Shown here in pieces: positions 1-64,000 of a stretch of 64,000 nt of DNA. Positions within the stretch are counted from its first letter, which is position 1, and each line of letters begins with the position of its first letter. Both the position numbers and the translations under genes were made by a program. The notes under the pieces were generated by a model, which was not told the DNA's origin, made no database searches, and was given only the letters and a program-made list of their open reading frames with translations. Source of the DNA: Trypanosoma brucei (taxonomy: Eukaryota). The stretch spans positions 3,296,001-3,360,000 of the forward strand of contig CH464491.1 of the NCBI GenBank assembly GCA_000002445.1, read 5' to 3'.

Positions 1-648
1 CTGCTAGCGACAACCACGAGCGAGTTAGGCATTCAGCAGCAGCATGTTGTTGAGCTCGAGCGAGAAAACTTGAAATTACGTGAGGAGTTGCGTGAAAAGC
101 AAGTGGAGGGTATGACAAGCCAGAGAAAGATGAACTACATACTGTCAAATTCCACTGTGTCGCCCCAGGGTGGTGGGGTCGCGACATATACCCGCTATTC
201 ACCGCGCCCGTCACCGGCGACATTGGTTTTGCCGGTCACTCCAACACTAATGGTGCAACCGGGTTTGACAGGGGCAAAAAATGTCTTAGATGCGGTAGAG
301 CTATACGTGAGGGAGTGTTTTCGCACGAATGTTCTGCCACACGTAGAACTTATCCACAGTTTGTACGACGGTGGTCGTCTCGCAGCCGTTGATCCCCCTC
401 TGACACATGCCCAGTTGAAAGCGCTTCAAAGGGTTCTTGCCGACGTTAAGTGGGAAGTGGAAGTTAGCGGAATACCCGTGGAAACCTACGTCAGTAGGAA
501 ACCTAGGTTGCAGGGGAGAAGCCAGCGCCTGAAGGATCCAGACGGGTCGTATCCTCTGTGGTTTAATAAGTTGGAGACTCTGACATTTCGTAGCGAAAGT
601 TGGCGTACATGTCTGGGGTTTGATTGTAGAAGATCGTACGTTCCCTGA
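1..648 (+). CDS. 3'-partial CDS (open from window start), coiled-coil hypothetical protein; probably the N-terminal part of the same gene as 697..2631 (see findings)
   Basis: Frame-1 ORF open from nt 1 to TGA at 646-648 (216 codons). Heptad-like charged N-terminal stretch (LKLREELREKQ). Same frame as the downstream ORF. Confidence 0.4.
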   Translation: MLATTTSELGIQQQHVVELERENLKLREELREKQVEGMTSQRKMNYILSNSTVSPQGGGVATYTRYSPRPSPATLVLPVTPTLMVQPGLTGAKNVLDAVELYVRECFRTNVLPHVELIHSLYDGGRLAAVDPPLTHAQLKALQRVLADVKWEVEVSGIPVETYVSRKPRLQGRSQRLKDPDGSYPLWFNKLETLTFRSESWRTCLGFDCRRSYVP

Positions 649-696
649 AATCTGCCCGGGTACTTGGAGTTATTCGGCATTAGCGATGCTTCCACC

Positions 697-2631
697 ATGC
701 AGCAACTTGCTGAAACACTCATCATGGAGCAGCATGTGGAGGCGTTGTCGCTGCCAGAAGTGGAGTTGGATGATGAGGGCCTTATTACGCTCTTTACACT
801 CATAACACGACGTGATCACTTGGGTTCACCAAATACCAATTGGGAAACGTGCGACAACGAAAACCAGGCGTTACAGGAATCAGGCCCCGCAGCAGCTTCT
901 GAAGCCGCTCCTAATGATGCACAGACGGAAAATAAAGAATCGGCGTCGCCGGAAGCAGGCGCTGCATTAACGCCAGTCGGTAAATCATCCCCAACTAAGA
1001 CCTTGTGGTTTGGAGTGCGCTGTCTAGACCTCAGCCGATGCAAGGTAACCGACCCCACGAATGTATTCAGTTTGTTTCGTTGCCCGGTACTTGAAGTTCT
1101 CGTGCTACCTCCTAGTAACCAGTTGGGTGATGTTCACCTGCGTGGTATTCTAGAAGGGTGTCCCCACCTGCACACGATCGATATTTCGGGTAACACAGCG
1201 TTGACTACTGCATGCGTAAAGTACATTGGCCGACACAGCACCATTAAAGTGCTCCGCCTTGAGAACTGCCCCGGAATCGACCAATTGGATTTGCCCAACG
1301 TTGAGGTGCTTTTCTCCTCCCTTTCCTACGTCATAAAACTCCATGCCCCTGAGCTTCGTCGGTTGCCTGTGCCGGTTGTCCATTCTCGCGTTTTGTTTAA
1401 CTTTAAGGCTCCAAGATTGCGGGAGATCACACTGAAGGGAATTGTTGTGGACCGTGGTACACTTGACTCCTTAAAGGAAACCGCGGGGGAGGATAGTGCT
1501 TGTGAGCCGAAGCTTGCCCGAAGTGTTCTCTCCTCGTGTGATAAGTCCGCGTACTCGGACGGACAGAAACAGAGCACTGCGGCAACAATGCAGCTCCTTT
1601 GTGCCGGTTTCATAGATTGCACGTTTACTGCTGAAAGTGAAGTGAGAGAGTTCACCAAGAAACAAAAAGCACTGTTGCGGTTCAGTCTTCACGGTTGCAA
1701 GGGCGTCGTAGATGCAAACCTTACGCGCCTTCCTGCTACGTTAATGGACCTTGATGTAAGTGACGCTGCACGATTGACTAACAGAGGCTTAGAAATAATT
1801 GCCACCACGCTACCACAGCTCATACGACTGAACCTCAAGAACGCTGGCCCACAGATCAGTAACGAGGGAATACGACTTCTGCGCGGACTTGTCAATCTGG
1901 AAGTGCTGAATCTGCTTCGCCTACCGCAAATTCTGCCGGAGGTGGTATCTGCCGTTGCGAACGACCTTCCTTGGTTGCGCAAGTTATACCACGAGACGGC
2001 CGTGGTGGGACCACGTAGTGTGGTGGCAGCAACTTCCGCACCCGTGCATCTCGACGTGTTGAGAGAAGATGATGAAGATACGACACGAAACGCTGTCGGA
2101 GAGTGTGCGAAGGAGTTGCTACAACTGCGCAATGAAACCGCACTCGCGTTTTGGATGGATGCACAACTTCCGAAACCCACGTCACTTATCCCACCGCGTA
2201 CTGCAGCAGCGGACAGCATCGATTTGAATGCGCCAAACCCGCCGCTAACAGCAAACACAACATTTTACGAAGCGGCCTGTCGTAAACTTTCGAGGAGCGG
2301 CAACGGAAGTGCATTTGGCTCTCAAAGGCGGGCAATCACTCCTCGCAACGCAGACGCTGCTGCTAACCAGAACGAGGAAAGCGAGAAGGTCAACGTATTG
2401 GTGGTTAGTAGTGGAGACGACTCGCCTCTAATGGCATCAATGTCAGGCGGTGTAGAGGGTGTGAATGCAGACTGCGGTGATGTAGATGATAAATCCTTCT
2501 CTACCGCACCAGATCAACTCAGGGCAATGGAGAATGCACTGGACGAAAAGAACAGACTAGTAATAGAAAAAAAGCCCTTGGGTCCATGGGATGAGGAAGA
2601 CCTTGTGGAGAAACACCGGAGGATCGCCTGA
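697..2631 (+). CDS. Leucine-rich repeat (RNI-like/F-box-LRR-like) protein
   Basis: Track ORF 664..2631 starts at TTG; first ATG is at 697. Repeated LxxLxLxxC/N motifs (LDLSRCKVTD, LRLENCPGIDQLDL, LIRLNLKNAGPQISNEGIRLLRGLVNLEVLNL). Confidence 0.6.
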   Translation: MQQLAETLIMEQHVEALSLPEVELDDEGLITLFTLITRRDHLGSPNTNWETCDNENQALQESGPAAASEAAPNDAQTENKESASPEAGAALTPVGKSSPTKTLWFGVRCLDLSRCKVTDPTNVFSLFRCPVLEVLVLPPSNQLGDVHLRGILEGCPHLHTIDISGNTALTTACVKYIGRHSTIKVLRLENCPGIDQLDLPNVEVLFSSLSYVIKLHAPELRRLPVPVVHSRVLFNFKAPRLREITLKGIVVDRGTLDSLKETAGEDSACEPKLARSVLSSCDKSAYSDGQKQSTAATMQLLCAGFIDCTFTAESEVREFTKKQKALLRFSLHGCKGVVDANLTRLPATLMDLDVSDAARLTNRGLEIIATTLPQLIRLNLKNAGPQISNEGIRLLRGLVNLEVLNLLRLPQILPEVVSAVANDLPWLRKLYHETAVVGPRSVVAATSAPVHLDVLREDDEDTTRNAVGECAKELLQLRNETALAFWMDAQLPKPTSLIPPRTAAADSIDLNAPNPPLTANTTFYEAACRKLSRSGNGSAFGSQRRAITPRNADAAANQNEESEKVNVLVVSSGDDSPLMASMSGGVEGVNADCGDVDDKSFSTAPDQLRAMENALDEKNRLVIEKKPLGPWDEEDLVEKHRRIA

Positions 2632-4151
2632 GAAGGTTTGTGGTAGAGCAGGCGTGAGCGCGGCATCGGCACTTTGGTTAGTGCTGTGGTAAGCAAGGGA
2701 AAAGGAGACATGAAAAAGTAGGTGAACAAAGGAATGAATTGTTGGAGGAAATTTTCCTGGTAACCAAGGAGGGGGGAAAAGAAGAGGAGGTGTCGAAGGT
2801 AAAAACACGTTGCATATAACCCCAAGGTAACGAACTTACCCGAGGGCAGTTTACACGTGAGCCAAGGGAGCCCGTGGGTTCTGCGGAAAGGGATATTTGG
2901 GCTCCAAGTAATGCCGCACTTGCATGAAATGTAAGTATAATGTAACAGTGTGGATATCGTCAACAGCTAGCGACGACGTCTCAGAGTTTGCCTCATACGC
3001 TCCAAGTCACGGGGGTGGGCTCTCAAGTGCAGCGGCGAATGCCAAAACATGCCGCTGCGGTTAGCCAGGGATGGTGTTTCCCGTTCATGTGTTATCCCTT
3101 CATATCTTCATATTTCTCTACGGTTGACTCCCGAGTGCATATGTACGCTTCTGGGGGGAAAGTGAACAGGCAGGGAGGAAACCCGTGACATATATATATA
3201 TGTACCTGTATGTATGTGTTTATGTGTATTTTTTTTTTGCGAGGATTTGACGGTAAGTTTGTAAATATGTAGATAATTACGTTATGATGAAAGTAAATAG
3301 ACAACGAGCAAATATCTAATACGGGGGAAAGGGAGAAAATGGGAAGAAGGAATAGTGGAAGAGAGAGAGAGAGCAGCTCGGGCGACACTTTCTCGGTGTG
3401 AGCTATCATGTTTAGTGGAAGGGAAACAAATGAACGAATTGTTCCAGCGACCTACGTAAGTTTTCATCGGGTGAGCCGATGTGCCGTAAGTCACATTTCG
3501 TATGATGAATCTTTTCTCCGATAGGAAAGGGAAAGACGGGAAAGTGTCGCACACTTTTTTGCGTTGGTGCTGGTCTGGCTGGTTTCTTTTTTTCGTTTAT
3601 GTGTTTCTCTTCTGCGGAGTGCACTCCGTTTCCCATGTGCTATGTTGAGTGTATATTAAGCAGAGGTACTGGCGGCGGTGAGGAGAAAGCCCGCGATAAA
3701 GCCGTTTCGCAACTTCCGTTCTGCATGCAGCGGATGGAATTTTATTTCTTCAGGCATATATTCGCAGTTTAAGGGACAAAAGAATGAAAAGGAAATACAT
3801 CATAAGTACGTAAGCCAGTGGTGGATTCCCCGATGTCAATATTTGATTCTCCCTCCCTGAGACACGCGTTAATTCCACCATTTCTCACCCTACCTTTTTC
3901 CCACCCATACCTCATATTTAATGTAGAGCGTGTCACTACTCAGTAGTAGAAGCCATTGTGAATTGCGCTGAGGGCATTTTTGGGCCTGCGTCAGGTCAAT
4001 ACCAACCGAGAAAATCCACTGTGGGAATTGCCTACAGGTGTCATATAAATACAAGCATCGGTGTTTATAATCACTGAGGCATAAAGAGTAGTATAGCAAA
4101 ATTTTCGCCGAGGGGCCTTTTGCTGTTCAGTGCAGGGAATAATCATATACG

Positions 4152-6506
4152 ATGGACGTGGAGGAATCAGAGCAGGGTGTCAATCCTTTGTGTGATTGGG
4201 TGGCGGAACCTCCTGCAAGGGAGCAGGAAAAGGAGCAAGCTGAAGGTGCTGAAGAGATTGGACCTGAAGAACTTGACGAGTGCCATGGTGGAAATATTGA
4301 CGGAACTGTCGAAGAGGTTGTCCCCGAAAAAGAGGGCGTCGGCCCCGGTAAACATGAAAGCAGTTATATTGAAGAGCAGCCCTCTCACGGAGCAGCTGAG
4401 CATCACGAAGCGGCCGAGCACCGCGTCACAGCCGCGGCCTGCGAGGATGAAGGAATGCCGTCGTTGGCCGTTCCCGAGCCACCCAAAACCCCCACCATGA
4501 CAACCTCAGCTCGCAACCGCCGCTCGAGGACTAACGTTGGTATGCCACCGATTGCCGCAGCCAAACCAAGGGCACAGGAAGGCAAGAACGACGGTGGCAA
4601 AGCTGACAAATGTAGTGGAGGGAGGAGCGCTAGAGGCAGGTTAATTCCCAAGCAGCCGGCTCGAAACACGAGTGCAAGGCAAGGGAAGCCCCCTCTTCTG
4701 TCGCCGAGGTGGGTGAAAGAGAGGGAAACACAATATAGGATTGTGTATGGGAAGCCACAGCACCGTTACCGCGTCAAGAGAAATGTTTGTCAACATCACC
4801 CGGCGGCATGCGGTGGCACACAAAGTGGTTTGGCAGAAGATGACGCGGCACTATCTTTCTCGGGTCACATCCACAATGTGGAAAAGCAACTGCACAAGTA
4901 CCTTTGCTCATTTAATACCCAGTGCGAGGAATGTACCGAGGCAGGGCCGCTGTCAAGCTACAAAACTGTATATGGGACCAAGAAAGCTTCGACCCTCAAG
5001 GCGAAATGTGGAGAAAGTCAACCCCCATTCATCCTTGGGGATTCACCTAGGGTTTCCAACGACCCTTTGTGGAGCGTCAACCGCCAGTTGTCCGAGTACA
5101 CTAACCGTCAGCGCCTCAGCGACAGAGGTAATCCAATGGCTAACACTGAACATGACCGTTCAAGTTCAAGGGGAGTGCCTTCTGATGGCGGGTGCACGTG
5201 GAGGACGAAATCCCCTTCCACGATGTCACAGCCCCAGCAACTAGAGTACGAAACCCGGGACGAGCTTCAACATTGTGCCCGACTCTTCCTCGATCGTTTT
5301 GGCGGCTCCAGCGAACGGCGCGACCTTGGCTATAGCTATCGTTGTATCCTTTTGGGGAAGCAGAAACAACAGTGGCTCTCAGGGTCAACGAAGGGGCTCC
5401 CTGGGGTACGGTGGGCGACGAAGAAAGACTCATCTCCCCCAAGACCACCGTTTAGGCACCGCGCGCACGACAGGCGTGTATTCCAAAATGATAAGGTTCG
5501 GACAAATGCCAGCACCTCGGCAAGATCAAAAGGGGGCCGCACTGGCGAAACCAGTGCGCAAAAGCAGGCGACCAGCCCTCACCATCCAGCGGCAGACACG
5601 ACCACGTACGTCAGAGAAGACTGGGTTGCGGAGCGGGGTGCCGCAATTACACTTGAAGCTTCAAAAAGCGACGTGGAAATTCTGAGAGGTGGACCAGAGG
5701 TGAGAGAAGCAGGAACGGAGCTGTTTCCATGTGAGGGGGCTGTGGAAGAACCAGCTGGTTGCTACAAAGTTGAGGGTGAGGAGTTGATGGGCCGCCCTGA
5801 TGCTGTGGGTGTGGAGTTGGTGAGCGGCTCCGAAACCGATCGTGGAGGGATGGAAAGCCGAACTGAGACTGTGGGGGCGGCTTTGGTGAGCCGCACCGAA
5901 ACTGATTGCGAGGAACTTGGAAGCCATGGTGTAATTGAACTTGTGCAACCTTCGGGTGAGGCCGACATTGATGGAGGGGAACAGGAGGGTCACAGCAAGG
6001 TTGCGAGTGAGGGGTTGGCTAGCCAAGCTGGAGCTGACGGCGAGGAACTTGGAAGCCATGATGTAATTGAACTTGTGCAACCTTCGGGTGAGGCCGACAT
6101 TGATGGAGGGGAACCGGAGGGTCACAGCAAGGTTGCGAGTGAGGGGTTGGCTAGCCAAGCTGGAGCTGACGGCGAGGAACTTGGAAGCCATGATGTAATT
6201 GAACTTGTGCAACCTTCGGGTGAGGCCGACATTGATGGAGGGGAACAGGAGGGTCACAGCAAGGTTGCGAGTGAGGGGTTGGCTAGCCAAGCTGGAGCTG
6301 ACGGCGAGGAACTTGGAAGCCATGATGTAATTGAACTTGTGCAACCTTCGGGTGAGGCCGACATTGATGGAGGGGAACCGGAGGGTCACAGCAAGGTTGC
6401 GAGTGAGGGGTTGGCTAGCCAAGCTGGAGCTGACGGCGAGGAACTTGGAAGCCATGATGTAATTGAACTTGTGCAACCTTCGGGTGAGGCCGACAACGGT
6501 TGCTAG
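4152..6506 (+). CDS. Acidic repetitive protein with C-terminal tandem 44-aa repeats
   Basis: ATG at 4152, 784 codons. The C-terminal third is 4.4 near-perfect copies of a 132-nt (44-aa) unit, ELGSHDVIELVQPSGEADIDGGE(Q/P)EGHSKVASEGLASQAGADGE, preceded by degenerate copies. Confidence 0.6.
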   Translation: MDVEESEQGVNPLCDWVAEPPAREQEKEQAEGAEEIGPEELDECHGGNIDGTVEEVVPEKEGVGPGKHESSYIEEQPSHGAAEHHEAAEHRVTAAACEDEGMPSLAVPEPPKTPTMTTSARNRRSRTNVGMPPIAAAKPRAQEGKNDGGKADKCSGGRSARGRLIPKQPARNTSARQGKPPLLSPRWVKERETQYRIVYGKPQHRYRVKRNVCQHHPAACGGTQSGLAEDDAALSFSGHIHNVEKQLHKYLCSFNTQCEECTEAGPLSSYKTVYGTKKASTLKAKCGESQPPFILGDSPRVSNDPLWSVNRQLSEYTNRQRLSDRGNPMANTEHDRSSSRGVPSDGGCTWRTKSPSTMSQPQQLEYETRDELQHCARLFLDRFGGSSERRDLGYSYRCILLGKQKQQWLSGSTKGLPGVRWATKKDSSPPRPPFRHRAHDRRVFQNDKVRTNASTSARSKGGRTGETSAQKQATSPHHPAADTTTYVREDWVAERGAAITLEASKSDVEILRGGPEVREAGTELFPCEGAVEEPAGCYKVEGEELMGRPDAVGVELVSGSETDRGGMESRTETVGAALVSRTETDCEELGSHGVIELVQPSGEADIDGGEQEGHSKVASEGLASQAGADGEELGSHDVIELVQPSGEADIDGGEPEGHSKVASEGLASQAGADGEELGSHDVIELVQPSGEADIDGGEQEGHSKVASEGLASQAGADGEELGSHDVIELVQPSGEADIDGGEPEGHSKVASEGLASQAGADGEELGSHDVIELVQPSGEADNGC
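5778..6494 (+). repeat. Coding tandem repeat: 132-bp unit x ~4.4 perfect copies (5910-6494) plus degenerate upstream copies; alternating CAG/CCG (Q/P) variants give a 264-bp higher-order period
   Basis: Unit start GAGGAACTTGGAAGCCATG recurs at 5910, 6042, 6174, 6306 and 6438. Confidence 0.9.
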
Positions 6507-33225: not shown

Positions 33226-33486
33226 GATTGGAGGGAAGGGCTGCATTCGATGACTGTTGGGTGTCATACCCCTCTTTAAGGTGTCATCTGTTAATGTCTT
33301 CGTTCTGGCACGCACTTGTGCCTTCCACAAGGGTAGTGAACCATCATAGTTTCTCCCTCCCTATCTCTTTTTGGTCTTTCTACCCCATCGTCCTTTCGCC
33401 AAATGTGTTCTGCGGGCGTAGGGAACCCCAGCAGTAGAAACAGGGATCGACGACAAGAGTAGGTGCACAACAGAAGGGTGTCAAAT

Positions 33487-33924
33487 ATGGCCGCAACAAA
33501 CTCACCCACAGAAGAGGAAGTTGTTATGCGCTACCAGCAGCTCCGTCAAGAGTGCCTCGCCATGGACTCACGCATCTCCGAACTGGAGAACGAGCTGCAT
33601 GAGCACCAGTTGGTGGCGGATACTCTCAAGCCACTGAACGGTGATCGCCGGTGTCATCGCCTTGTGGGTGGGGCGCTCATTGAACGCACAGTTGCAGATA
33701 TATTACCCGAGCTTGTGGAAAATATTAAGGGTATCGAGGAGGCGTTAGCGCAGCTGAACAAGATGCTGACAGAAAAGCAAGCAGCGATGGACGAATACGC
33801 GAGGAAGCATGGTGTGACCGTAGCCCAGCGGCAGGGTCAGACCCCCGCTGGTGGAGGTGGCGCCAATAACGATGAAGGGGAAAAGAAGCCGATGGGCGCA
33901 GACAGCAGGGGTGTTCTGGTATGA
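33487..33924 (+). CDS. Prefoldin subunit 2 (beta-type prefoldin)
   Basis: Track ORF starts at GTG 33463; ATG is at 33487. Coiled-coil/beta-hairpin/coiled-coil layout with the conserved hairpin CHRLVGGALIERTVADILPEL (compare CFRMIGGVLVERTVKEVLPAL). Confidence 0.8.
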   Translation: MAATNSPTEEEVVMRYQQLRQECLAMDSRISELENELHEHQLVADTLKPLNGDRRCHRLVGGALIERTVADILPELVENIKGIEEALAQLNKMLTEKQAAMDEYARKHGVTVAQRQGQTPAGGGGANNDEGEKKPMGADSRGVLV

Positions 33925-34429
33925 GTGGTGTCCAGGGAAAGAGGTCGGCGGTGAGTCGTATAGAGTTGCGTCTGCATTTACGTGACAAATGCATATATCA
34001 TTCGAGAACCCACACATATACGCGTGCCGGCGAAGGGTTTGAGCGAAAAGAGAGGGATGGGCTGCCGACGGAGGCCGGCGAGAAGGTGCCTGTGTGGCGA
34101 CCCCCTGACGGGTTCCCATCGCCGGTGACTTGGTCGGGGAGGAGCTCTCTTTCCTGTGGTTTGAAAAAAAAAGTAATAATAATAGTAGGTAATGGGTCCA
34201 TACGCTAAGGGAGGTGCTCCCCTCCTCTTGTTCTTTTTTTCTTTAAACGGCCAATGGCAACTGTCGAGAGTGCAACCTTTGTTGTTGCTGTTGTTTCTTT
34301 GGCTGATGCGTGTTTCCACGATCAACTCTTCACATTAGCGCCTACGCACATTTGTACATGACGCGTTTTTTTTTTTCCCCCTTCTGCCTGCTCACATTTC
34401 CCCTCCCCTTTTATCTAGGCTTTGGAAAT

Positions 34430-35485
34430 ATGCAGGTTAGCGACGGCAATCCTGCCATGCCTCCACTGAGCGTCATCAAATGGTGGTATGAAAAAGATGA
34501 TGAGCAACGGCGGGCCTTTCTAGCGGCGGATAATATTTCTGAAAAGGTGCAACAAAACATTCGCGCAGTCGAGTGCTTTGCCGAACAGCACAGTTATTAC
34601 ATTATGTGCGAGACAAAGTTAGCGATACGACCCCTTCCCCCACTCTCACCGCAACCAAATCAACCGCGCTCTCGTGCATGGCTCGGTGATGTCGCTTCAG
34701 TGTGGTTACCATGTCCCGTACACGCCATCATGGATTACGGCGGGAGGTATCAGACGACAGAGCAGAGGGAGGCGCGCCGCAAAGAGGCGGAGCGGCTCAT
34801 TAGCATTATATACTCACGAACAGCTTCTGTACTGCATAGCTACTGCGGGGCCCAACAGGAAACGCAGAAGCATGCCAATGGTAAAGACAATTCATCGGAG
34901 GCGTGGAGGTCCCGCTCGGCTCGCATTCTCGTCGATGTGTTAGTTGAAGCGTCCGTTGCGGCACTGTGCCGGTTGGGTCTCACCGACGAGTTGGAGGCCA
35001 TAGAAAAACAAAAATCGAGTAGGAACGAAGCGGCGCTGGAGGTGCGTGAGGCGCCGCTATTCGCTGAAACCCCCAAACCAGTTGGGGCATGTCGTGCTGA
35101 GGCGTGGGGATGTTTAGGTTTGTGGGAGATTTTGCAGTCGAGAGTAGGAGACGTATCGGAGCTGGTGACACTTTTTTCCACCTCGGTTGCTGCAACGTCG
35201 GGTGCGAAGCGTCCGCGGGTAGACGAGTCGAACAGCAGCCCTTCCGAAGGCACTACAGAAGCGGCAAAGCCGAACCAATGGAAAGTTCTTCGTGAAGTGT
35301 TTTGCTCGCTGGTGCCCGGTACGGATTCGACACATGGCGAGCACGACTCCACTGATGATAATAACAGTAAGAGCCTATCGCTAATTCCTTGCCGTAAGGC
35401 TCCACGTATAACTATTACCGCAGCAGACGTGCGTTGTGGTATTGCGAAGGTGTTGAAGAAACACCGACCGGTGAAGCCTTTATAA
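34430..35485 (+). CDS. Hypothetical protein
   Basis: Track ORF starts at GTG 34310 and runs through a polypyrimidine tract. ATG 34430 follows the polyY tract and an AG. Sense orientation of the PTU. Competing antisense ORF 34840..35592 rejected. Confidence 0.45.
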   Translation: MQVSDGNPAMPPLSVIKWWYEKDDEQRRAFLAADNISEKVQQNIRAVECFAEQHSYYIMCETKLAIRPLPPLSPQPNQPRSRAWLGDVASVWLPCPVHAIMDYGGRYQTTEQREARRKEAERLISIIYSRTASVLHSYCGAQQETQKHANGKDNSSEAWRSRSARILVDVLVEASVAALCRLGLTDELEAIEKQKSSRNEAALEVREAPLFAETPKPVGACRAEAWGCLGLWEILQSRVGDVSELVTLFSTSVAATSGAKRPRVDESNSSPSEGTTEAAKPNQWKVLREVFCSLVPGTDSTHGEHDSTDDNNSKSLSLIPCRKAPRITITAADVRCGIAKVLKKHRPVKPL

Positions 35486-39600: not shown

Positions 39601-39694
39601 GCAGCCGTCTTGGGGATTGCTTTTGAGCGTAATCAAAATTGGAGGTGCACATTTCTTTGAACCTGTGTCTTTTCCTTTAACTGTTAATAGCAAG

Positions 39695-40957
39695 ATGGAG
39701 GGTTTGTGTGGGTGGTGGTGCATCCTATTTGTCGTAACAATCTCTCAAGCTGGTGAAGCACAAGAAAAACCAATTAACCGGGACGAGTTCGAAGCCCTGT
39801 GCAGGTTTATAAATCTCGCGGGAGACAGTGAGACACCAACGAAGGTTGAGAAAAATGTCAAGCGAACAGTGAAGAAAATTCTAACCGAAAGTGGGGTGGC
39901 CGATAGCAGGAAAAAGGAACTCGAAGATCTGCAAAAGCAAGCAGAGAAGTATCGAGAGGAAAACATGTCATTTTGGGAAACAGTAGGGATGGGGGAGATA
40001 AATAGGAGCTTGACGGACGCACTCTACGGGGAGAACCACAACGCCGTTGTTAAAGCACAAGGGAGTAGAGACCCCATCTGCGGCGCCAGAGAGGCGGACG
40101 CGGGTACGGAGGCAGGAAAGTCACTGGTGATCGACTTATTTTGCCTATGTTCCACATCGCCAGAACTTCACAACTTTCAGCAGATTTGCTGCGCCGACTG
40201 TCGAGGTGGAGCAAACGACCACCCCTGGATTCCTTCGGAAGATGGGAACCAGAGATGGAAGTTCCTTGCGCAAAAATGTGGAGAAACTAATCAAGGTGGA
40301 AAGCTCTCAACAGACTCCATTGAGAAGTCAGCCGAATTCTTTTTGAAAACATTGAAAAATCCCTTAGACTCAAGAGCGGAGGCACGCCGCACAGTGCTAG
40401 GAAGCACCAACGGCGATGTTAGCATTAATTGCAACGGTTGGAAAACTTCGGGAAACGGACGGTGCGTCAAATACGATCCAAACCACTTAAATGATGGGAT
40501 CCTGTCAATACCATGGTACGTAAAATTGGCGAAGGCAGCGACCCGAATGGATAAATTAATGGAAGCTGAAAAAACGTTGCGTGAGATTCTGGAAAATGTG
40601 GAGAAGTTGGAACGAAAGCAAGTCGCAATACCACCCAAACCTGCTGACGAGGGTAATGCCGTCCCGAGCGTCTCAAAAGACGTCGTAGAAAACAACAATG
40701 AAAATTCCGGCGTAAGTAATAATCGTGAGAAAAGAGAAAGCAAAGGTGAACTCAACGAAGAGAAATCACCAGGGAGTGAAAAGTCGCCGGAGGAAGTCGA
40801 CTGTGACGGCTGTAAACCCGAAGAAGGGTGTGAGGAGGGAAAATGTGAAAGCGAAAATGGGAGACACGACTCTGAAGGCACAAAAAGGCCACCTGTAAAG
40901 AGCCATTCTGCAACAATAATCGGTGGTTCGTTGAAGTTTTTCTTGCTTTTGGGATAA
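39695..40957 (+). CDS. VSG-like / GPI-anchored surface protein candidate (signal peptide, Cys-containing ectodomain, acidic Cys-rich C-terminal module, hydrophobic GPI-signal tail)
   Basis: Track ORF starts at TTG 39617; ATG is at 39695. N-terminal signal peptide MEGLCGWWCILFVVTISQAGEA. Helical region with an EFEALCRFINLAGD-type motif. C-terminal DCDGCKPEEGCEEGKCESENG followed by KS|HSATIIGGSLKFFLLLG, a 17-aa hydrophobic tail after Ser, as in trypanosome GPI-addition signals. Confidence 0.5.
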   Translation: MEGLCGWWCILFVVTISQAGEAQEKPINRDEFEALCRFINLAGDSETPTKVEKNVKRTVKKILTESGVADSRKKELEDLQKQAEKYREENMSFWETVGMGEINRSLTDALYGENHNAVVKAQGSRDPICGAREADAGTEAGKSLVIDLFCLCSTSPELHNFQQICCADCRGGANDHPWIPSEDGNQRWKFLAQKCGETNQGGKLSTDSIEKSAEFFLKTLKNPLDSRAEARRTVLGSTNGDVSINCNGWKTSGNGRCVKYDPNHLNDGILSIPWYVKLAKAATRMDKLMEAEKTLREILENVEKLERKQVAIPPKPADEGNAVPSVSKDVVENNNENSGVSNNREKRESKGELNEEKSPGSEKSPEEVDCDGCKPEEGCEEGKCESENGRHDSEGTKRPPVKSHSATIIGGSLKFFLLLG

Positions 40958-42579
40958 AGAGTTCTCCGTAAGCTTCAAAAGAATAAAAAGGTGGTGAAGG
41001 ACACAACTCCAGTCACACAAGCGTAAAAATATTAACCACTGTACCATTCCTGAGTTGTGTGATGGGAAATGAGTTCGCCAACCCAAAGTTTGGAACAAAA
41101 ATGGCCAACTATCGGGGAGGAGGGAGGCAGCGGGTACCACTGAACCATCTCCCTAGTCGCGGTGGTTCCCAGAATATTTTTTTGACGCGTAATGCGTAAG
41201 CCCTATATTATCACCGGAACTGAAAATTTGCTCGAAATATATTGATATTTTTGTTTTAAAGTGCAACGGAAACGAAACACGACAAGTACGTATTTTTATG
41301 AACGTCTAAAAGTTTATCAACTTCTCACATGCAAATTTACTCCCGAAAACAACTATATATAAAATGAAAGTAGTTGCAAATGCGCGAAGAATTTTCTTCT
41401 CCTGTCATCAATCACCGCCCCAAAGCGCCCGTTTAGTCCGTGGGAAAAGGGAGGAAACGTCCTTGCAAAAATAAAAAAACGCCGTGTTGAGACGGTATGA
41501 AATACAAGGGTGGAGAAAGGCCGCGTCCGTCCGCTAAACATCACCCGTTATTGCGGATTGCGTGTGACACTCTCAGGAAATGTTTTCGTGTCGGGAATGG
41601 GAACGCAGAACAACAACAGCACAGTTTCACAACCCCTGTCTTCTTTAAACGCCCGTATTATGTCAAAAAAAAAAAAAGACAGTACAACTGGAGCGCCGAT
41701 ACGCGTGACGTCGGGGGTAACTCTGTCTCTCTGTTTCGCGTAATCTTATCTTATTAGTGCCATCCGATCCGTGCCAGCAAGCCGCAACACTCATGTTGAT
41801 GGAATAACTCCGCCGCCGGCACACCGCCTTCTAAGAACCCGAAAAGGCGGTTTGGAAAATGGATGGTGGGAGGTTCCGCTCGAAGGTTATTTTATCAACA
41901 GCTGCAGCCCGGCAAACTTAACATGGCGTTGAATTAACGATAGCTGAGAAACTGCGCGACACTCTTCTCGAAACCAACGGACCGCTTCTTTCAGTCCCCT
42001 TCGTGTCATTTCATGAAACCCGTCTTGTCCAAATCCCCTCTCGGAATCTCACTGCTCTCCGTCGAAACAGATGGCGCGAAGCGATCAGAAGCCGGTGGTG
42101 GGATTCGGCCACACATCCGCCAAACCTGCCGATGTGATTCGAGTCTCGTTGGGAGGGGGAAGTCACATTATGCAGGTGGATTTGACCTTATATATCACAT
42201 TTTTCCTTCCCTTTCCTCACTGATGCTAGCACAGGGGGAACGTGGAGAGAAATGGGGAAATAATGGTGTGTACAAAGCTTATTTCCTTGCTTCAGACGAA
42301 GGTAGCGGGGGCCCGCGCAGAAGCTTACATGAAAGACGTCCCTGTCAGAACTGCTGGTGTTTCCAAAGGGAAGGAAAAGACAGACTAGTGAGGCACCCTC
42401 CGCCTGTAACGGCACAGTTTGGGAAATCTTAAAAAAAAACTCCCCCAGAGGGGGGAGGGGGAAGAAATATAGAGGGCCACACCCCCTGCCTCTGATACAA
42501 CATCGTTTCGTCATGACTCCTCCACATGTATGTGTTACACCTTTCATCAGCCTCACGGTGTTTCCGGCAGGGCGCATAT
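40958..42579. terminator. Convergent strand-switch region (cSSR) between PTU-A (+) and PTU-B (-); expected RNA pol II termination zone
   Basis: The last + gene ends at 40957 and the first - gene ends at 42580. No long ORF. Contains T- and A-runs and several short hairpins. Confidence 0.55.
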
Positions 42580-44058
42580 TTACATCCGTGGGGAGGAGCC
42601 CAGAAGAATACGATCCATATTTATTGGTTTAACGAACTTGGGAGTAGGCGAACCCGTTTGAGCAGACGTCCCATTTGGATGGGGTCTGGGCGACCGACCT
42701 CTCAACAACTCAAACCCGGGCTTGCAGTTCGGCGACCTCGTACCTTGAAACTCTGGGGGCGACGATCCCAGCGATAGTTCGGTTGCGCGCCGGCGCAGGT
42801 TTCCAACCCCGTCCCGCAGCCCGGTACCTGTTTTCCTCAAACCTCCCACGCTACGCCCCTTTGAACCACAGTTGGTCAGGCTACCGGAAAGCGCGCTTGA
42901 CGTGTGTCTGCGGTTTCCAGGGGATTTACCCACTCCCAACGTGTTGGTTGCCCTCATTGCGGAAGTCCACGCCGGCCCCGTGGCGAGGGAGTTGTACCGC
43001 TCTCTTTTTGTTGCTGGTCGAGCTGGAGCGCTCCACCCACGGTTCCGAGATGCCACACGCCCTAATGGAGGGGACACTTGTCGGTAGGAGCTCCCGACAC
43101 CACTGGCAGCAGAAACACCGCGATACCCCATGGGGGCAGCGCTCTTCATACGAAGCATGCCAAACCGCTGCTGGACAGACGTCTGGCTACGACCGCCACC
43201 TCTGCGCGCATTCATTTCCGTTTCCATCATCTTTCGCTTTGCCTGATGCGCGGACGCGAGAGCATACAGCCTTTCCCACGGTCCGCTTCCATCTTGGCGC
43301 CGTGAGGCAGCAACACTACGTCTAACAACATTCCCCCGAGAAACTTTGGGTGCAGGGGGGGCGGTCGTGCTTCGTGGCTTGGCTGCGCGGCTCCACAAGC
43401 TGCGCTCGCGGTTCGTTGGCCTCGTTGAAAAGGAGTTTTTTGGTTTGTACAGTGCTGTTGGCATTCTCGGTTGTGACAAGGCTTTGCGCCGTGGGTTCCA
43501 AACAGGCCTACGAGGGGCGCTCTCCTTGAATGGCCCCTTGTTGTTACGATATTCCTCCAACTCCCGCCGAACGCGTTTCCATAAGTCCTCAAGGGACACA
43601 TCCTCCCGATCGTCCACATCTCCCCTTGCATTCTTGTTCAACAATCCCCTCGAAGGGGTGGCTCTATTTCCCACATTTCCGCGCGCCAGCAGCCGGTTAC
43701 GACCAGCTGCACCGCTATTCTTCCCCACGGCTGGCTTGTTACGTTTGACATCATGGGTGCGACTGCGCCCCAACCCACTTGCCATTTCAAAGAGCTCCTG
43801 TAATTTTTCGTGAGACTGTTGCAAAACTGAACTTTGATCCATCCCTCCGGACATGGCGGGTTCGTAGAATGGAGTCGCCGTGGGTAACTTCGCAATACTG
43901 CCGCCGTGAAGGAGGTCATGCCCTTGTTCCAACAATTCCTCCAAGCGCGCCATGGGCCCACCGAGTTCATTGAGGTCCCTTCCCTCAACCCGACCCGCCA
44001 CTTCAAGCGGGCGGCTACTGCCCGTGGACGGAGAAGTATCAAAGGAATCACCACACAT
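42580..44058 (-). CDS. Hypothetical basic, Ser/Arg/Pro-rich low-complexity protein; paralog of 46074..46526
   Basis: Track ORF starts at GTG 44073; ATG is at 44058 (MCGDS...). 492 codons. Shares N-terminal (MARLEELLEQGHDLL) and C-terminal (DVDDREDVSLEDLWKRVRRELEEY) motifs with the next gene upstream. Confidence 0.5.
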   Translation of the reverse strand: MCGDSFDTSPSTGSSRPLEVAGRVEGRDLNELGGPMARLEELLEQGHDLLHGGSIAKLPTATPFYEPAMSGGMDQSSVLQQSHEKLQELFEMASGLGRSRTHDVKRNKPAVGKNSGAAGRNRLLARGNVGNRATPSRGLLNKNARGDVDDREDVSLEDLWKRVRRELEEYRNNKGPFKESAPRRPVWNPRRKALSQPRMPTALYKPKNSFSTRPTNRERSLWSRAAKPRSTTAPPAPKVSRGNVVRRSVAASRRQDGSGPWERLYALASAHQAKRKMMETEMNARRGGGRSQTSVQQRFGMLRMKSAAPMGYRGVSAASGVGSSYRQVSPPLGRVASRNRGWSAPARPATKRERYNSLATGPAWTSAMRATNTLGVGKSPGNRRHTSSALSGSLTNCGSKGRSVGGLRKTGTGLRDGVGNLRRRATELSLGSSPPEFQGTRSPNCKPGFELLRGRSPRPHPNGTSAQTGSPTPKFVKPINMDRILLGSSPRM

Positions 44059-59346: not shown

Positions 59347-60150
59347 CTAGAAATCTGCGTCCAGAGAGAAAACCTTTGACGACCTTTCGGAACTCATCAC
59401 ACCAGCCTTCTGATACTCACCAACCTTCTTCTCGAAAAAGTTAGTTTTCCCCTGAAGAGAAATCATATCCATGAAGTCAAATGGGTTCTTCGAGTTGTAA
59501 TGACGGTCGTACCCCAAGGACACCAGGAGCCGATCGGCGACAAACTCAATGTACTGAGTCATCAGCTGAGAATTCATTCCAATTAAGCGGACAGGTAATG
59601 CATCGCAAATGAACTCTCGTTCAATTGATACTGCATTGCATATAATTTCAAGCACACGATCCCTCGGCAGCTTGTTTACGATATACTTCTCGTATAATAG
59701 GCAAGCAAAGTCAGTGTGCAGACCCTCATCACGTGAAATCAGCTCGTGCTGAAGGTGAGCCCGGGCATCAAGCCACGCTTCTTTAGCCAAAAAATGGNNN
59801 NNNNNNNNNNNNNNNNNNNNNNNNNNNNNNNNNNNNNNNNNNNNNNNNNNNNNNNNNNNNNNNNNNNNNNNNNNNNNNNNNNNNNNNNNNNNNNNNNCGC
59901 TTGCCGCGAAGAAAGCCAACACATGTTTGATGAAGTGTCGCTCGCCGTCGTCCAGCTTCTCCCAATCCGTCATGTCATTCCCAAGGTCGATTTCCTCCAC
60001 CGTCCAGATACTGCTCTCCGCCTCCTTGTACTTCTGCCATATGTCAGGGTACTTGATAGGGAAGATAACGTAGCGGTCGGGGTTTTCTGTCAGAAGTGGC
60101 TCCTCCACCTCCCCTTCCTTACGCGAGCGCTTGTGAGATTTGGGTGGCAT
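59347..60150 (-). CDS. RNR2: Ribonucleotide reductase small subunit (R2), array copy 1, interrupted by an assembly gap and a local frameshift
   Basis: Start and end are identical to copies 2 and 3 ([17 protein letters not shown] ... FSLDADF). A 100-N run at 59798-59897 sits inside the ORF. A 1-nt deletion relative to the other copies lies just 3' of the gap on the coding strand. Confidence 0.5.
59798..59897. other. Assembly gap (100 N placeholder)
   Basis: Run of 100 n characters. This unit is ~190 bp shorter than the neighbouring units, so the true gap is about 285-290 bp. Confidence 0.95.
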
Positions 60151-60952
60151 CGTTAGCACTGTCCTTGTTTTTCTTCTCTTGATGTGTTTTCAATATACGA
60201 CAGAGCAGCTAATGGAATGAATGAAGAGAAAGCTTGCACACAAGAGGCATATTGAGTAGTGAAGTAGCGAAACAGTGGAAAGAAGTGGACATCCCAACCA
60301 ACGCGCACAATACATTGCCATCGTGTAACTATCAGCACAAAAAGGGTAGTCGCAATAATTGCAACCGTCCCTCCACTATGGCATTACCAAATGGAAAAAC
60401 TAAAACAAGTCAAAGGGAAAAACAATGGGAACCTGACAGGTACAAAAGTGCAAAATGGTATGCCTCTTACACATTTCCCTTTCACCACCCTCACACATAG
60501 AAACTGTCATCAAGCATAGCGTGTAAATATTTGTCAGGTGAGGGCACTCTAAGCACTAATATTGAAACCAATTGTCCACCAAAGGTAAAAAGACAAGAAG
60601 AAAGGCATCTACTAAAGCGGACACATTCTCTCCCATCTATATCTATTTACATAGGTATATATCTATTTCCGGATTTACCCACGTTCGTACTTCCGTACGC
60701 ACGCAGGTTCTCGTGTATGCCTATGTACGATTCTATGTGTTTGCATGCAGGCGTATGGAGGCATACGTGCTGCTGCCCACAAGCTCATTTCCTTGTTATG
60801 ATATTTGTTAAAAACAACAGCCAGTACTCCAAGGAGGTGCAGTCGCTGACCTTACCAGAGTAACAGATATCTAACTCAATGAAAGTAAAGGGCATCAGCC
60901 CCATACTTTACAGTTCCCCTCACATACGGGCACGCACCAACGATAACATCCC

Positions 60953-61966
60953 CTAGAAATCTGCGTCCAGAGAGAAAACCTTTGACGACCTTTCGGAACT
61001 CATCACACCAGCCTTCTGATACTCACCAACCTTCTTCTCGAAAAAGTTAGTTTTCCCCTGAAGAGAAATCATATCCATGAAGTCAAATGGGTTCTTCGAG
61101 TTGCAATGACGGTCGTACCCCAAGGACACCAGGAGCCGATCGGCGACAAACTCAATGTACTGAGTCATCAGCTGAGAATTCATTCCAATTAAGCGGACAG
61201 GTAATGCATCGCAAATGAACTCTCGCTCAATTGATACTGCATTGCATATAATTTCAAGCACACGATCCCTCGGCAGCTTGTTTACGATATACTTCTCGTA
61301 TAATAGGCAAGCAAAGTCAGTGTGCAGACCCTCATCACGTGAAATCAGCTCGTTGCTGAAGGTGAGCCCGGGCATCAAGCCACGCTTCTTTAACCAAAAA
61401 ATGGCGCAGAACGAGCCAGAGAAAAATATGCCTTCGACAGCCGCAAACGCGACGAGCCGCGTAGGGAACGAAGTCTGACTGCCAATCCATTCAATCGCCC
61501 ATTTGGCCTTTTTCTCAATACACGGAATCGTCCTTATGGCATGTAGCAGTCGTTGCTTTTCGTCGGGATCCACAACATACGTATCGATCAACACGGAGTA
61601 TGTCTCACAATGGATATTTTCCATAGCAATCTGGAACCCATAGAAACATCGAACTTCAGGTACCTGCACTTCGCACATGAACCGTTCCGCAAGGTTCTCC
61701 AGCACAATGCCATCGCTTGCCGCGAAGAAAGCCAACACATGTTTGATGAAGTGTCGCTCGCCGTCGTCCAGCTTCTCCCAATCTGTCATGTCATTCCCAA
61801 GGTCGATTTCCTCCACCGTCCAGATGCTGCTCTCCGCCTCCTTGTACTTCTGCCATATGTCAGGGTACTTGATAGGGAAGATAACGTAGCGGTCGGGGTT
61901 TTCTGTCAGAAGTGGCTCCTCCACCTCCCCTTCCTTACGCGAGCGCTTGTGAGATTTGGGTGGCAT
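60953..61966 (-). CDS. RNR2: Ribonucleotide reductase small subunit (R2), array copy 2 (337 aa)
   Basis: Track ORF starts at GTG 61975; ATG is at 61966. R2 hallmarks are present: [29 protein letters not shown] (Fe ligands E/H), [18 protein letters not shown], conserved C-terminal Tyr in VGEYQKAG, and R1-binding tail FSLDADF. Confidence 0.9.
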
Positions 61967-62743
61967 CGTTAGCACTGTCCTTGTTTCTCTTCTCTTGATG
62001 TGTTTTCAATATACGACAGAGCAGCTAATGGAATGAATGAAGAGAAAGCTTGCACACAAGAGGCATATTGAGTAGTGAAGTAGCGAAACAGTGGAAAGAA
62101 GTGGACATCCCAACCAACGCGCACAATACATTGCCATCGTGTAACTATCAGCACAAAAAGGGTAGTCGCAATAATTGCAACCGTCCCTCCACTATGGCAT
62201 TACGAAATGGAAAAACTAAAACAAGTCAAAGGGAAAAACAATGGGAACCTGACAGGTGCAAAAGTGCAAAATGGTATGCCTCTTACACATTTCCCTTTCA
62301 CCACCCTCACACATAGAAACTGCCATCAAGCATAGCGTGTAAATATTTGTCAGGTGAGGGCACTCTAAGCACTAATATTGAAATCAATTGTCCACCAAAG
62401 GTAAAAAGAAAAAAATACACCCGATAAACAAGTGTCTTACTCCAGACATTAAAATCATCAAATGATATTAGCTATCTCACATGTAACAAGCGCACAGGTT
62501 CTCGTGTATGCCTATGTACGATTCTATGTGTTTGCATGCAGGCGTATGGAGGCATACGTGCTGCTGCCCACAAGCTCATTTCCTTGTTATGATATCTGTT
62601 AAAAACAACAGCCAGTACTCCAAGGAGGTGCAGTCGCTGACCTTACCAGAGTAACAGATATCTAACTCAATGAAAGTAAAGGGCATCAGCCCCATACTTC
62701 ACAGTTCCCCTTACATACGGGCACGCACCAACGATAACATCCC

Positions 62744-63757
62744 CTAGAAATCTGCGTCCAGAGAGAAAACCTTTGACGACCTTTCGGAACTCATCACACC
62801 AGCCTTCTGATACTCACCAACCTTCTTCTCGAAAAAGTTAGTTTTCCCCTGAAGAGAAATCATATCCATGAAGTCAAATGGGTTCTTCGAGTTGTAATGA
62901 CGGTCGTACCCCAAGGACACCAGGAGCCGATCGGCGACAAACTCAATGTACTGAGTCATCAGCTGAGAATTCATTCCAATTAAGCGGACAGGTAATGCAT
63001 CGCAAATGAACTCTCGCTCAATTGATACTGCATTGCATATAATTTCAAGCACACGATCCCTCGGCAGCTTGTTTACGATATACTTCTCGTATAATAGGCA
63101 AGCAAAGTCAGTGTGCAGACCCTCATCACGTGAAATCAGCTCGTTGCTGAAGGTGAGCCCGGGCATCAAGCCACGCTTCTTTAACCAAAAAATGGCGCAG
63201 AACGAGCCAGAGAAAAATATGCCTTCGACAGCCGCAAACGCGACGAGCCGCGTAGGGAACGAAGTCTGACTGCCAATCCATTCAATCGCCCATTTGGCCT
63301 TTTTCTCAATACACGGAATCGTCCTTATGGCATGTAGCAGTCGTTGCTTTTCGTCGGGATCCACAACATACGTATCGATCAACACGGAGTATGTCTCAGA
63401 ATGGATATTTTCCATAGCAATCTGGAACCCATAGAAACATCGAACTTCAGGTACCTGCACTTCGCACATGAACCGTTCCGCAAGGTTCTCCAGCACAATG
63501 CCATCGCTTGCCGCGAAGAAAGCCAACACATGTTTGATGAAGTGTCGCTCGCCGTCGTCCAGCTTCTCCCAATCTGTCATGTCATTCCCAAGGTCGATTT
63601 CCTCCACCGTCCAGATGCTGCTCTCCGCCTCCTTGTACTTCTGCCATATGTCAGGGTACTTGATAGGGAAGATAACGTAGCGGTCGGGGTTTTCTGTCAG
63701 AAGTGGCTCCTCCACCTCCCCTTCCTTACGCGAGCGCTTGTGAGATTTGGGTGGCAT
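62744..63757 (-). CDS. RNR2: Ribonucleotide reductase small subunit (R2), array copy 3 (337 aa)
   Basis: Same as copy 2. It differs at two codons (ENIHSE versus ENIHCE in copy 2; DRHYNS versus DRHCNS). Confidence 0.9.
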
Positions 63758-64000
63758 CGTTAGCACTGTCCTTGTTTTTCTTCTCTTGATGTGTTTTCAA
63801 TATACGACAGAGCAGCTAATGGAATGAATGAAGAGAAAGCTTGCACACAAGAGGCATATTGAGTAGTGAAGTAGCGAAACAGTGGAAAGAAGTGGACATC
63901 CCAACCAACGCGCACAATACATTGCCATCGTGTAACTATCAGCACAAAAAGGGTAGTCGCAATAATTGCAACCGTCCCTCCACTATGGCATTACCAAATG

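What the first reader, a model, noticed from the sequence alone, without database searches (positions are those of the whole stretch)
1..2631. Single in-frame TGA splits what looks like one coiled-coil + LRR gene
The ORF open from nt 1 ends at TGA 646-648, and the LRR ORF continues in the same frame with no further stop. The first downstream ATG (697) is only 48 nt after the stop. That is far too short to hold a trypanosome 3'UTR, polyadenylation site, polypyrimidine tract and 5'UTR. The likeliest reading is one gene (>=875 codons, N-terminal coiled-coil plus C-terminal RNI-like LRRs) carrying a nonsense codon. The alternatives are a sequencing error, a strain-specific pseudogene or a readthrough site.
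Basis: seen in the sequence. Interest (0 to 1): 0.5.

Follow-up and report, generated by a model that had tools for sequence, protein, structure and literature searches.

The report
One LRR gene split by three extra bases
The "stop codon" sits in a 44-base patch where the Trypanosoma brucei TREU927 reference has three extra single bases that three sister genomes lack, so two annotated genes are really one conserved 1052-residue leucine-rich-repeat gene, and the break is most likely a reference-sequence error, not biology.

Summary
Frame 1 is open from nt 1, has one internal stop (TGA 646-648), and continues to TGA 2629-2631. The first ATG after the stop is at 697.

The window is T. brucei brucei TREU927 chromosome 11. 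The two ORFs are Tb11.01.4380 (inferred Tb927.11.12540) and Tb11.01.4390 (= Tb927.11.12550).

It is one gene, but not through a nonsense substitution. Compared with T. equiperdum OVI, T. b. gambiense DAL972 and T. b. equiperdum, the window has three private 1-nt insertions within 44 nt:
- GGG to GGGG at 615-618
- A to AA at 630-631
- GG to GGG at 658-660

The true frame moves from frame 1 to 2 to 3 and back to 1. The TGA is made from cTG Aaa of true Leu-Lys codons. Deleting the three bases restores an 875-codon ORF that differs from T. equiperdum at two residues. It also restores a helix (LIVEIVRSLKSAR) conserved across nine Trypanosoma orthologues of 904-1301 aa.

Two published transcriptome maps find no spliced-leader site or separate RNA for the downstream ORF. 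Ribosome profiling, mostly on TREU927 itself, shows it translated (ribosome release score 159).

Best reading (about 0.8): base-call or consensus errors in the reference. A real strain-specific null allele remains possible (about 0.14). Interest is low.

The parts
1..2631 (+). C-terminal 875 codons of one 1052-codon gene for a conserved Trypanosoma LRR protein. The first 177 codons lie upstream of the window. It is annotated in TREU927 as two genes: Tb11.01.4380 (392 aa) and Tb11.01.4390 / Tb927.11.12550 (644 aa).
   Evidence: P0010 and P0011 match the window exactly. The orthologues P0001, P0012 and P0013 are single 1052-aa ORFs. With the three bases removed, the window gives an 875-codon ORF with 2 aa differences from P0001.
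1..108 (+). Tail of the long N-terminal helix (predicted coiled coil). Most of this helix lies upstream of the window.
   Evidence: The AlphaFold2 model has helix H127-213 at pLDDT about 70. Window codon 1 corresponds to residue 178.
615..618 (+). Insertion 1: GGGG where three sister genomes have GGG. The true frame moves to window frame 2.
   Evidence: blastn and 4-way MAFFT alignments. The insertion is private to the window.
619..657 (+). Out-of-frame stretch. The conserved peptide is still encoded, as LIVE in frame 2 and IVRSLKSAR in frame 3. Frame 1 reads FDCRRSYVP*NLP instead.
   Evidence: Three-frame translation. The segment is conserved in 9 species, with R390 invariant. It is modelled as helix H378-391 between strands E370-375 and E397-401, at pLDDT 64-81.
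630..631 (+). Insertion 2: AA where sister genomes have A. The true frame moves to window frame 3.
646..648 (+). Apparent in-frame TGA, annotated as the stop of Tb11.01.4380. It is formed by the last two bases of the true Leu codon CTG (645-647) and the first base of the true Lys codon AAA (648-650).
658..660 (+). Insertion 3: GGG where sister genomes have GG. The net change is +3, so the true frame returns to window frame 1.
697..699 (+). ATG annotated as the start of Tb11.01.4390 / Tb927.11.12550. In the intact protein it is the internal Met409.
   Evidence: P0011 equals window 697-2631. Kolev Table S2 gives coordinates 3296697-3298631. Jensen Additional file 8 gives CDS start 3363838.
2629..2631 (+). 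The gene's real stop codon (TGA). It is followed by a 1520-nt intergenic region that carries pyrimidine tracts.
   Evidence: Ribosome footprints stop here: 6473 in the CDS against 1 in the 3'UTR.

Best explanation
Window 1-2631 is the 3' five-sixths of one protein-coding gene. It encodes a 1052-residue protein found in every Trypanosoma species with a detected homologue, with an N-terminal coiled coil and FBXL-like cysteine-containing leucine-rich repeats. In the TREU927 reference sequence, three extra single bases lie within 44 nt. Each repeats the neighbouring base: G at 615-618, A at 630-631, G at 658-660. Together they push the reading frame by +1, +2 and then +3. Thirteen conserved codons are misread as fourteen, one of which is TGA, and the frame then returns. 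Annotators therefore called two genes. The extra bases are most likely base-calling or consensus errors in a locally poor patch of the Sanger-era assembly, not a property of the parasite. In the cell there is one trans-spliced mRNA translated as one polypeptide. Shown: the three private insertions, the restored ORF, the conservation, the lack of a separate transcript, and translation of the downstream part. Inferred: that the three bases are absent from real TREU927 DNA.
For: (1) The three insertions are the only indels in coding sequence over 5.6 kb of 4-genome alignment. They are private to the window and absent from three assemblies deposited as separate records (DAL972, T. equiperdum OVI, T. 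b. equiperdum). (2) Placing 3 events at random in 2631 nt puts them within 44 nt with probability about 8e-4. (3) Removing them gives an uninterrupted 875-codon ORF with 2 aa differences from T. equiperdum, and no other damage is present. Strain variants run 11 synonymous to 4 non-synonymous. (4) The scrambled stretch is a conserved helix of a strand-helix repeat unit. Nine species from T. congolense to T. cruzi and T. theileri are colinear across it. (5) There is no pyrimidine tract upstream of ATG 697, and the 48-nt gap compares with 429-1520 nt for real intergenic regions here. (6) Kolev et al. 2010 Table S2 lists Tb11.01.4390, but not Tb11.01.4380, among ORFs without a transcript of their own. 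(7) Jensen et al. 2014 Additional file 8 lists Tb927.11.12550 as 'no SL; no distinct RNA', yet its ribosome release score is 158.96 (6473 CDS footprints, 1 in the 3'UTR, 7737 CDS mRNA reads). Most other 'no SL' ORFs in the part of that file read here score 'bkg'. Six of the nine libraries were from TREU927 itself. (8) The same window contains an unfinished spot: a 100-N gap at 59798-59897 with a 1-nt homopolymer deletion about 50 nt from its edge. (9) There is a precedent: Tb927.2.5860/5870 is reported as 'wrongly split' in the TREU927 assembly (PMC8445201).
Against: No TREU927 reads could be inspected, so absence of the three bases from TREU927 DNA is inferred, not shown. The ribosome-profiling counts are summed over six TREU927 and three Lister 427 libraries, so the footprints cannot be assigned to a strain. 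The footprints would also be compatible with one intact allele in a heterozygote. All three changes are insertions that sum to exactly +3, which is somewhat tidy for random errors; about 1 in 4 triples of ±1 errors would restore the frame (my own arithmetic, not a tool result). NCBI and UniProt still carry the two-gene model. I could not find out whether TriTrypDB has corrected it.
Confidence: 0.8

Rival explanations
1. The three insertions are real in strain TREU927, on one or both alleles. They would then be a very recent strain-specific null or pseudogene allele of a conserved gene, captured in the haploid mosaic reference.
For: The sequence is what the reference says. Allele-specific premature stops and a lack of nonsense-mediated decay are documented in T. 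brucei Lister 427 (PMC8445201). Footprints on the downstream ORF could come from a second, intact allele or from the three Lister 427 libraries.
Against: It needs three independent +1 events in 44 nt, at very short runs of 3, 1 and 2 bases, in a lineage that otherwise differs from its nearest relative by 4 substitutions in 2.6 kb. There is no other decay of the ORF. The third insertion restores the frame only after a stop, so selection cannot explain it. The downstream ORF shows robust translation in a data set that is two-thirds TREU927.
Confidence: 0.14
2. The stop is real, and the C-terminal 644 residues are made separately from the same mRNA, by reinitiation or internal initiation at AUG 697. 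This would be a bicistronic arrangement.
For: There is no SL site for the downstream ORF, yet it has a high ribosome release score. AUG 697 lies 48 nt after the stop.
Against: From general knowledge, reinitiation after a 392-codon ORF is very inefficient in eukaryotes. AUG 697 is an internal Met in all close relatives. The break falls inside a predicted repeat unit, not between domains. This reading also requires the rival above to be true first.
Confidence: 0.03
3. Programmed recoding: UGA 646-648 is read through, or decoded as selenocysteine, to give the long protein.
For: Only that the stop is UGA and the frame continues.
Against: No orthologue has a stop or a TGA-derived residue at this position. 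The frame-1 residues on both sides of the TGA (FDCRRSYVP / NLPG) do not match the conserved sequence, which is instead encoded in frames 2 and 3. No SECIS element or any other Rfam family was found in 1-4200 at E<=1.
Confidence: 0.01
4. These are two genuinely separate genes with separate mRNAs, as annotated.
For: The NCBI and UniProt annotation of TREU927.
Against: The gap is 48 nt and has no pyrimidine tract. Two independent studies found no SL site or distinct RNA for the downstream ORF. All other sequenced trypanosomes have a single ORF.
Confidence: 0.01

Closest known systems
Tb927.2.5860 / Tb927.2.5870, reported as one gene 'wrongly split' in the TREU927 assembly (Cosentino, Brink & Siegel 2021, PMC8445201)
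   Same: Two adjacent same-strand TREU927 gene models correspond to one ORF in another T. brucei assembly. The consequence is the same for genome-wide tagging, RNAi and proteomics data sets that rely on TREU927 models.
   Different: That case was recognised from the Lister 427 v10 assembly and TrypTag localisations. Here the evidence is three sister genomes plus published SL-mapping and ribosome-profiling tables, and the lesion is resolved to three specific bases. I found no paper that names this pair as a split gene.
The intact orthologues: T. b. gambiense DAL972 D0A9D1 / CBH18282.1, T. equiperdum OVI SCU68514.1 and T. b. equiperdum RHW67579.1. [quoted passage not shown]
   Same: They share 99.7% DNA identity with the window, the same neighbours (FAZ3 upstream, a 784-aa protein downstream) and the same stop.
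   Different: They lack the three extra bases and so read as one ORF.
F-box/LRR-repeat proteins FBXL2 and FBXL5 (cysteine-containing, RNI-like LRR class; PDB 6o60_C, 6vcd_B)
   Same: A profile of the trypanosome family matches the FBXL2 LRR region (E 8.6e-8) and FBXL5 (E 1.1e-3). The model shows alternating strand and helix units.
   Different: No F-box was detected by Pfam at E<=0.01. The Pfam LRR_4 and LRR_6 hits fall below the gathering score. The N-terminal coiled coil and the long disordered C-terminus have no counterpart in FBXL proteins. Homologues were found only in Trypanosoma.
Programmed UGA readthrough / selenocysteine recoding
   Same: A UGA followed by an open frame.
   Different: The stop is not conserved, the local frame is wrong on both sides of it, and there is no SECIS element.

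Membership tests
Gene model split by an error in the reference assembly | The two adjacent ORFs are colinear with one ORF in closely related genomes. | tested here: met
   Single 1052-aa ORFs in DAL972, T. equiperdum OVI and T. b. equiperdum. ORFs of 904-1301 aa in six more distant Trypanosoma proteins. Six of the eight more distant homologues span 100% of the query across the junction (T. cruzi 57%, T. theileri 89%), and all nine sequences align without a break there.
Gene model split by an error in the reference assembly | The disrupting change is private to one assembly and is small (indels typical of miscalls). | tested here: met
   Three 1-nt insertions, each duplicating the neighbouring base, at 615-618, 630-631 and 658-660. 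They are absent from L001, L002 and L003, and there are no other coding indels in 5.6 kb.
Gene model split by an error in the reference assembly | The downstream ORF has no mRNA-processing signals or transcript of its own. | tested here: met
   Longest pyrimidine run is 6 nt, against 11-25 nt in real intergenic regions. Kolev 2010 Table S2. Jensen 2014 'no SL; no distinct RNA'.
Gene model split by an error in the reference assembly | The downstream ORF is nevertheless translated in the same strain. | tested here: inconclusive
   RRS 158.96, with 6473 CDS footprints against 1 in the 3'UTR. But the counts are pooled over 6 TREU927 and 3 Lister 427 libraries.
Gene model split by an error in the reference assembly | Independent reads from the same strain lack the disrupting bases. 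| not testable with these tools
   No TREU927 read data or second TREU927 assembly can be reached. The exact-protein look-up found no other contig.
Strain-specific pseudogene | Further degenerative changes or relaxed constraint in the disrupted copy. | tested here: not met
   After removing the 3 bases the ORF is intact, with 2 aa differences from T. equiperdum. There are no other stops or frameshifts. A very recent event cannot be excluded.
Programmed stop-codon readthrough / selenocysteine | The stop codon and its in-frame context are conserved in orthologues. | tested here: not met
   Orthologues have no stop here. The conserved peptide is encoded in frames 2 and 3, not in the frame of the TGA.
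Programmed stop-codon readthrough / selenocysteine | A SECIS element or other recoding RNA element is present. | tested here: not met
   No Rfam match at E<=1 in window 1-4200.
Cysteine-containing (FBXL / RNI-like) LRR proteins | Significant match to LRR profiles or to solved LRR domains. | tested here: inconclusive
   Pfam LRR_4 scores 22.9 bits (cut-off 27) and LRR_6 scores 19.6 bits (cut-off 23.4), both below threshold. The family profile against the PDB hits FBXL2 at E 8.6e-8. The AF2 model is low-confidence overall (pLDDT 44) but shows strand-helix alternation at residues 303-451.
Cysteine-containing (FBXL / RNI-like) LRR proteins | An F-box N-terminal to the LRRs (required for FBXL membership). 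| tested here: not met
   No F-box family in the Pfam scan of P0001 at E<=0.01.

The most novel reading that the evidence does not exclude
TREU927 really carries the triple-insertion allele. The genome strain would then be a natural knockout, or a heterozygote, for an LRR protein conserved in every Trypanosoma species with a detected homologue. The C-terminal 644 residues might still be produced from the single mRNA by reinitiation at AUG 697. That would be an unusual case of efficient downstream translation after a long ORF in a trypanosome.
Probability: 0.12. Interest if true: 0.3.

Novelty: not a real feature. Interest (0 to 1): 0.1.

Why it matters
The value is mainly for curation. TREU927 gene models underlie many genome-wide T. 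brucei resources, including RNAi fitness screens, TrypTag, proteomic search databases and ribosome profiling. A conserved 1052-aa protein counted as a 392-aa 'hypothetical' plus a 644-aa 'LRRP' causes several problems:
- Tags placed at the false C-terminus or false N-terminus would interrupt the protein.
- Peptides across the junction (for example TCLGLIVEIVR) cannot be identified.
- The downstream half has already been discarded from analyses as 'no SL; no distinct RNA' (Jensen 2014).

Merging the two models and deleting three bases would fix this. It has no wider biological implication unless the lesion proves real in the strain.

Tried and rejected
Rejected: the orthologous DNA shows no base substitution at 646-648. 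It shows three flanking insertions.
- **Readthrough or selenocysteine.** Rejected on frame analysis and the absence of a SECIS or any Rfam hit.
- **Nuclear RNA editing.** Rejected from general knowledge: U insertion/deletion editing is confined to kinetoplast transcripts, and the extra bases here are G, A and G.
- **The bacterial promoter/terminator scan.** Irrelevant to trypanosomes and uninformative.
- **Literature searches by old gene IDs, UniProt, RefSeq and T. congolense IDs.** No main-text hits.
- **Supplements.** Those of Jackson 2010, Nilsson 2010, Cosentino 2021 and TrypTag 2023 held no entry for these genes. No supplement is held for Siegel 2010.
- **Parsons et al. 2015, the follow-up annotation paper.** Not held.
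- **Exact look-up of the 644-aa product in public assemblies.** Found nothing, so no independent TREU927-like contig was available.
- **The AlphaFold2 model.** Too poor overall (mean pLDDT 44) to justify a fold search. Only its locally better segment (residues 361-450) was used.
- **The tRNA scan of the window.** Found none.
Full report
**Observation.** The window begins inside an ORF in frame 1. That frame has a single internal stop, TGA at 646-648, and then stays open to TGA 2629-2631. Frames 2 and 3 each carry 40 or more stops over the same span. The first ATG after the stop is at 697, 48 nt downstream.

**Identity.** A protein search with the read-through translation returned nine Trypanosoma proteins. 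The closest cluster (98% identity) has five members:
- Tb11.01.4380, T. b. brucei TREU927, 392 aa, 'hypothetical'
- Tb11.01.4390, TREU927, 644 aa, 'LRRP, putative'
- three single 1052-aa proteins, from T. b. gambiense DAL972, T. equiperdum OVI and T. b. equiperdum

The two TREU927 proteins match the window residue for residue, including the odd tail ...CLGFDCRRSYVP. Published coordinates place the window on the chromosome. Kolev 2010 gives Tb11.01.4390 at Tb927_11_01_v4:3296697-3298631, so the window starts at 3,296,001. Jensen 2014 gives Tb927.11.12550 a CDS start at Tb927_11_v5:3363838. The upstream neighbour, an 806-aa protein, is FAZ3 (Tb927.11.12530 = Tb11.01.4370). By numbering, the upstream half is therefore Tb927.11.12540. 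That assignment is inferred.

**What the lesion is.** The intact proteins read ...CLGLIVEIVRSLKSARYLELF... where the window reads ...CLGFDCRRSYVP*NLPGYLELF.... That is 13 residues replaced by 14 codons, so this is not a point nonsense mutation. I fetched the orthologous DNA from three genomes (L001-L003) and aligned it to the window. Over 2800 nt the window and T. equiperdum are 2793/2800 identical. The only gaps are three 1-nt insertions in the window:
- GGGG at 615-618, against GGG
- AA at 630-631, against A
- GGG at 658-660, against GG

All three genomes agree against the window. The true reading frame therefore walks from window frame 1 to frame 2 (LIVE), then to frame 3 (IVRSLKSAR), and back to frame 1 (YLELF...). 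The TGA is assembled from the last two bases of the true Leu codon and the first base of the true Lys codon (cTG Aaa). Deleting one base from each of the three runs yields an uninterrupted 875-codon ORF that differs from T. equiperdum at two residues.

**Conservation and structure.** Nine orthologues, from T. congolense, T. vivax, T. rangeli, T. conorhini, T. cruzi, T. theileri and an unnamed Logan assembly, are colinear across the junction. R390, E399 and F401 are invariant. An AlphaFold2 model is poor overall (mean pLDDT 44) but reaches 64-81 over residues 361-450. There the scrambled 13 residues form helix H378-391 between strands E370-375 and E397-401. This is one unit of a strand-helix repeat, so the break lies inside a fold unit and not between domains. 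The model also gives a long helix at 127-213, the coiled-coil part, of which only the tail falls inside the window. The family profile matches the LRR domain of FBXL2 (E 8.6e-8) and FBXL5. Pfam LRR hits fall below the gathering score and no F-box is detected. The protein is thus an FBXL-like LRR protein in architecture but not a demonstrated member of that family. Its cellular role is unknown.

**One mRNA or two.** The 48-nt gap has no pyrimidine tract. The longest run in the 248 nt upstream of ATG 697 is 6 nt. The eight real intergenic regions measured in this window are 429-1520 nt long and carry runs of 11-25 nt. Kolev et al. [quoted passage not shown] Jensen et al. 2014 independently removed Tb927.11.12550 from their analysis as 'no SL; no distinct RNA'.

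**Artefact or real allele.** Several lines favour errors in the reference.
- Three private indels within 44 nt, with none elsewhere in the compared coding sequence, would arise by chance with probability about 8e-4.
- They sit at very short runs of 3, 1 and 2 bases, and no other damage accompanies them.
- The third insertion restores the frame only after a stop, so selection cannot account for it.
- In Jensen's table the ORF has a ribosome release score of 158.96, from 6473 CDS footprints, 1 footprint in the 3'UTR, 7737 CDS mRNA reads and 190 3'UTR mRNA reads. In that study 60% of genuine CDSs score above 50, and most 'no SL' ORFs in the part of the table read here are at background. Ribosomes therefore translate this ORF and release at 2629-2631 even though it has no SL site of its own. 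Six of the nine libraries came from TREU927 itself.
- The window is demonstrably unfinished elsewhere. A 100-N gap at 59798-59897 interrupts a third ribonucleotide-reductase small-chain copy, and a 1-nt homopolymer deletion lies about 50 nt from the gap edge.
- Another TREU927 gene pair has been reported as 'wrongly split' (PMC8445201).

Two things hold back certainty. I could not inspect TREU927 reads. The footprint counts are pooled with three Lister 427 libraries, so a real (possibly heterozygous) TREU927 allele is not excluded.

I put the reference-error reading at about 0.8 and a real strain-specific allele at about 0.14. Reinitiation, readthrough and two separate genes together come to about 0.05. 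No Rfam family, including SECIS, is present in 1-4200.

**Comparison with what is known, and verdict.** The gene is an ordinary, conserved, uncharacterised trypanosome LRR protein. Sister-genome annotations already carry the intact model, and two transcriptome papers had already flagged the downstream ORF as lacking its own mRNA. What this analysis adds is the exact lesion: three bases, not a nonsense codon. It also links the ribosome-profiling score to the single-ORF reading. As a biological feature, the in-frame stop is most likely not real. Interest is low (0.1), and the practical value is a correction to the reference annotation.

Noticed in passing
window 59798-59897 (and 59347-60159, - strand): A 100-N assembly gap interrupts a third tandem copy of the ribonucleotide-reductase small-chain gene. 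It replaces about 309 nt relative to the full copies at 60953-61975 and 62744-63766. About 50 nt from the left gap edge, near 59747, there is a 1-nt deletion in a TT run that shifts the frame. This looks like a read-end error and shows that this stretch of the reference is unfinished.
   Followed up: partly
window 39617-40957 (+) and roughly 41000-42580: An ORF with a Pfam VSG_B domain (E 7.7e-46) ends the run of + strand genes. The - strand genes start at 42580. This is a convergent strand-switch region with a chromosome-internal VSG-related gene. ARAGORN found no tRNA genes anywhere in the window.
   Followed up: no
upstream of window (L001-L003 1-1702): The upstream neighbour is FAZ3 (Tb927.11.12530 = Tb11.01.4370, 806 aa, 91 kDa). 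The original FAZ3 paper (PMC4406125) prints the new ID as 'Tb927.11.1530', which appears to be a typo when compared with the later review (PMC4827413).
   Followed up: partly
window 33463-33924 and 34310-35485 (+): Two + strand ORFs, 153 aa in frame 1 and 391 aa in frame 2, without Pfam hits lie downstream of the TYW3 gene. I did not check whether they are another frameshift-split gene or whether the short one is spurious.
   Followed up: no
window 3189, 3228-3232, 3359, 3586 (intergenic): Microsatellite length polymorphisms ((AT)n, a T-run and (AG)n) between TREU927, T. equiperdum, T. b. gambiense and T. b. equiperdum. Apart from the three insertions discussed, these are the only indels in the 5.6 kb compared. 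In this region TREU927 is closest to T. equiperdum OVI.
   Followed up: partly
UniRef100_Q382S6 (protein of window 697-2631): The UniRef name says 'n=2 Tax=Trypanozoon'. That implies an identical 644-aa entry in a second Trypanozoon taxon outside T. brucei brucei. It may be an annotation transferred from the TREU927 model. I did not identify it.
   Followed up: no
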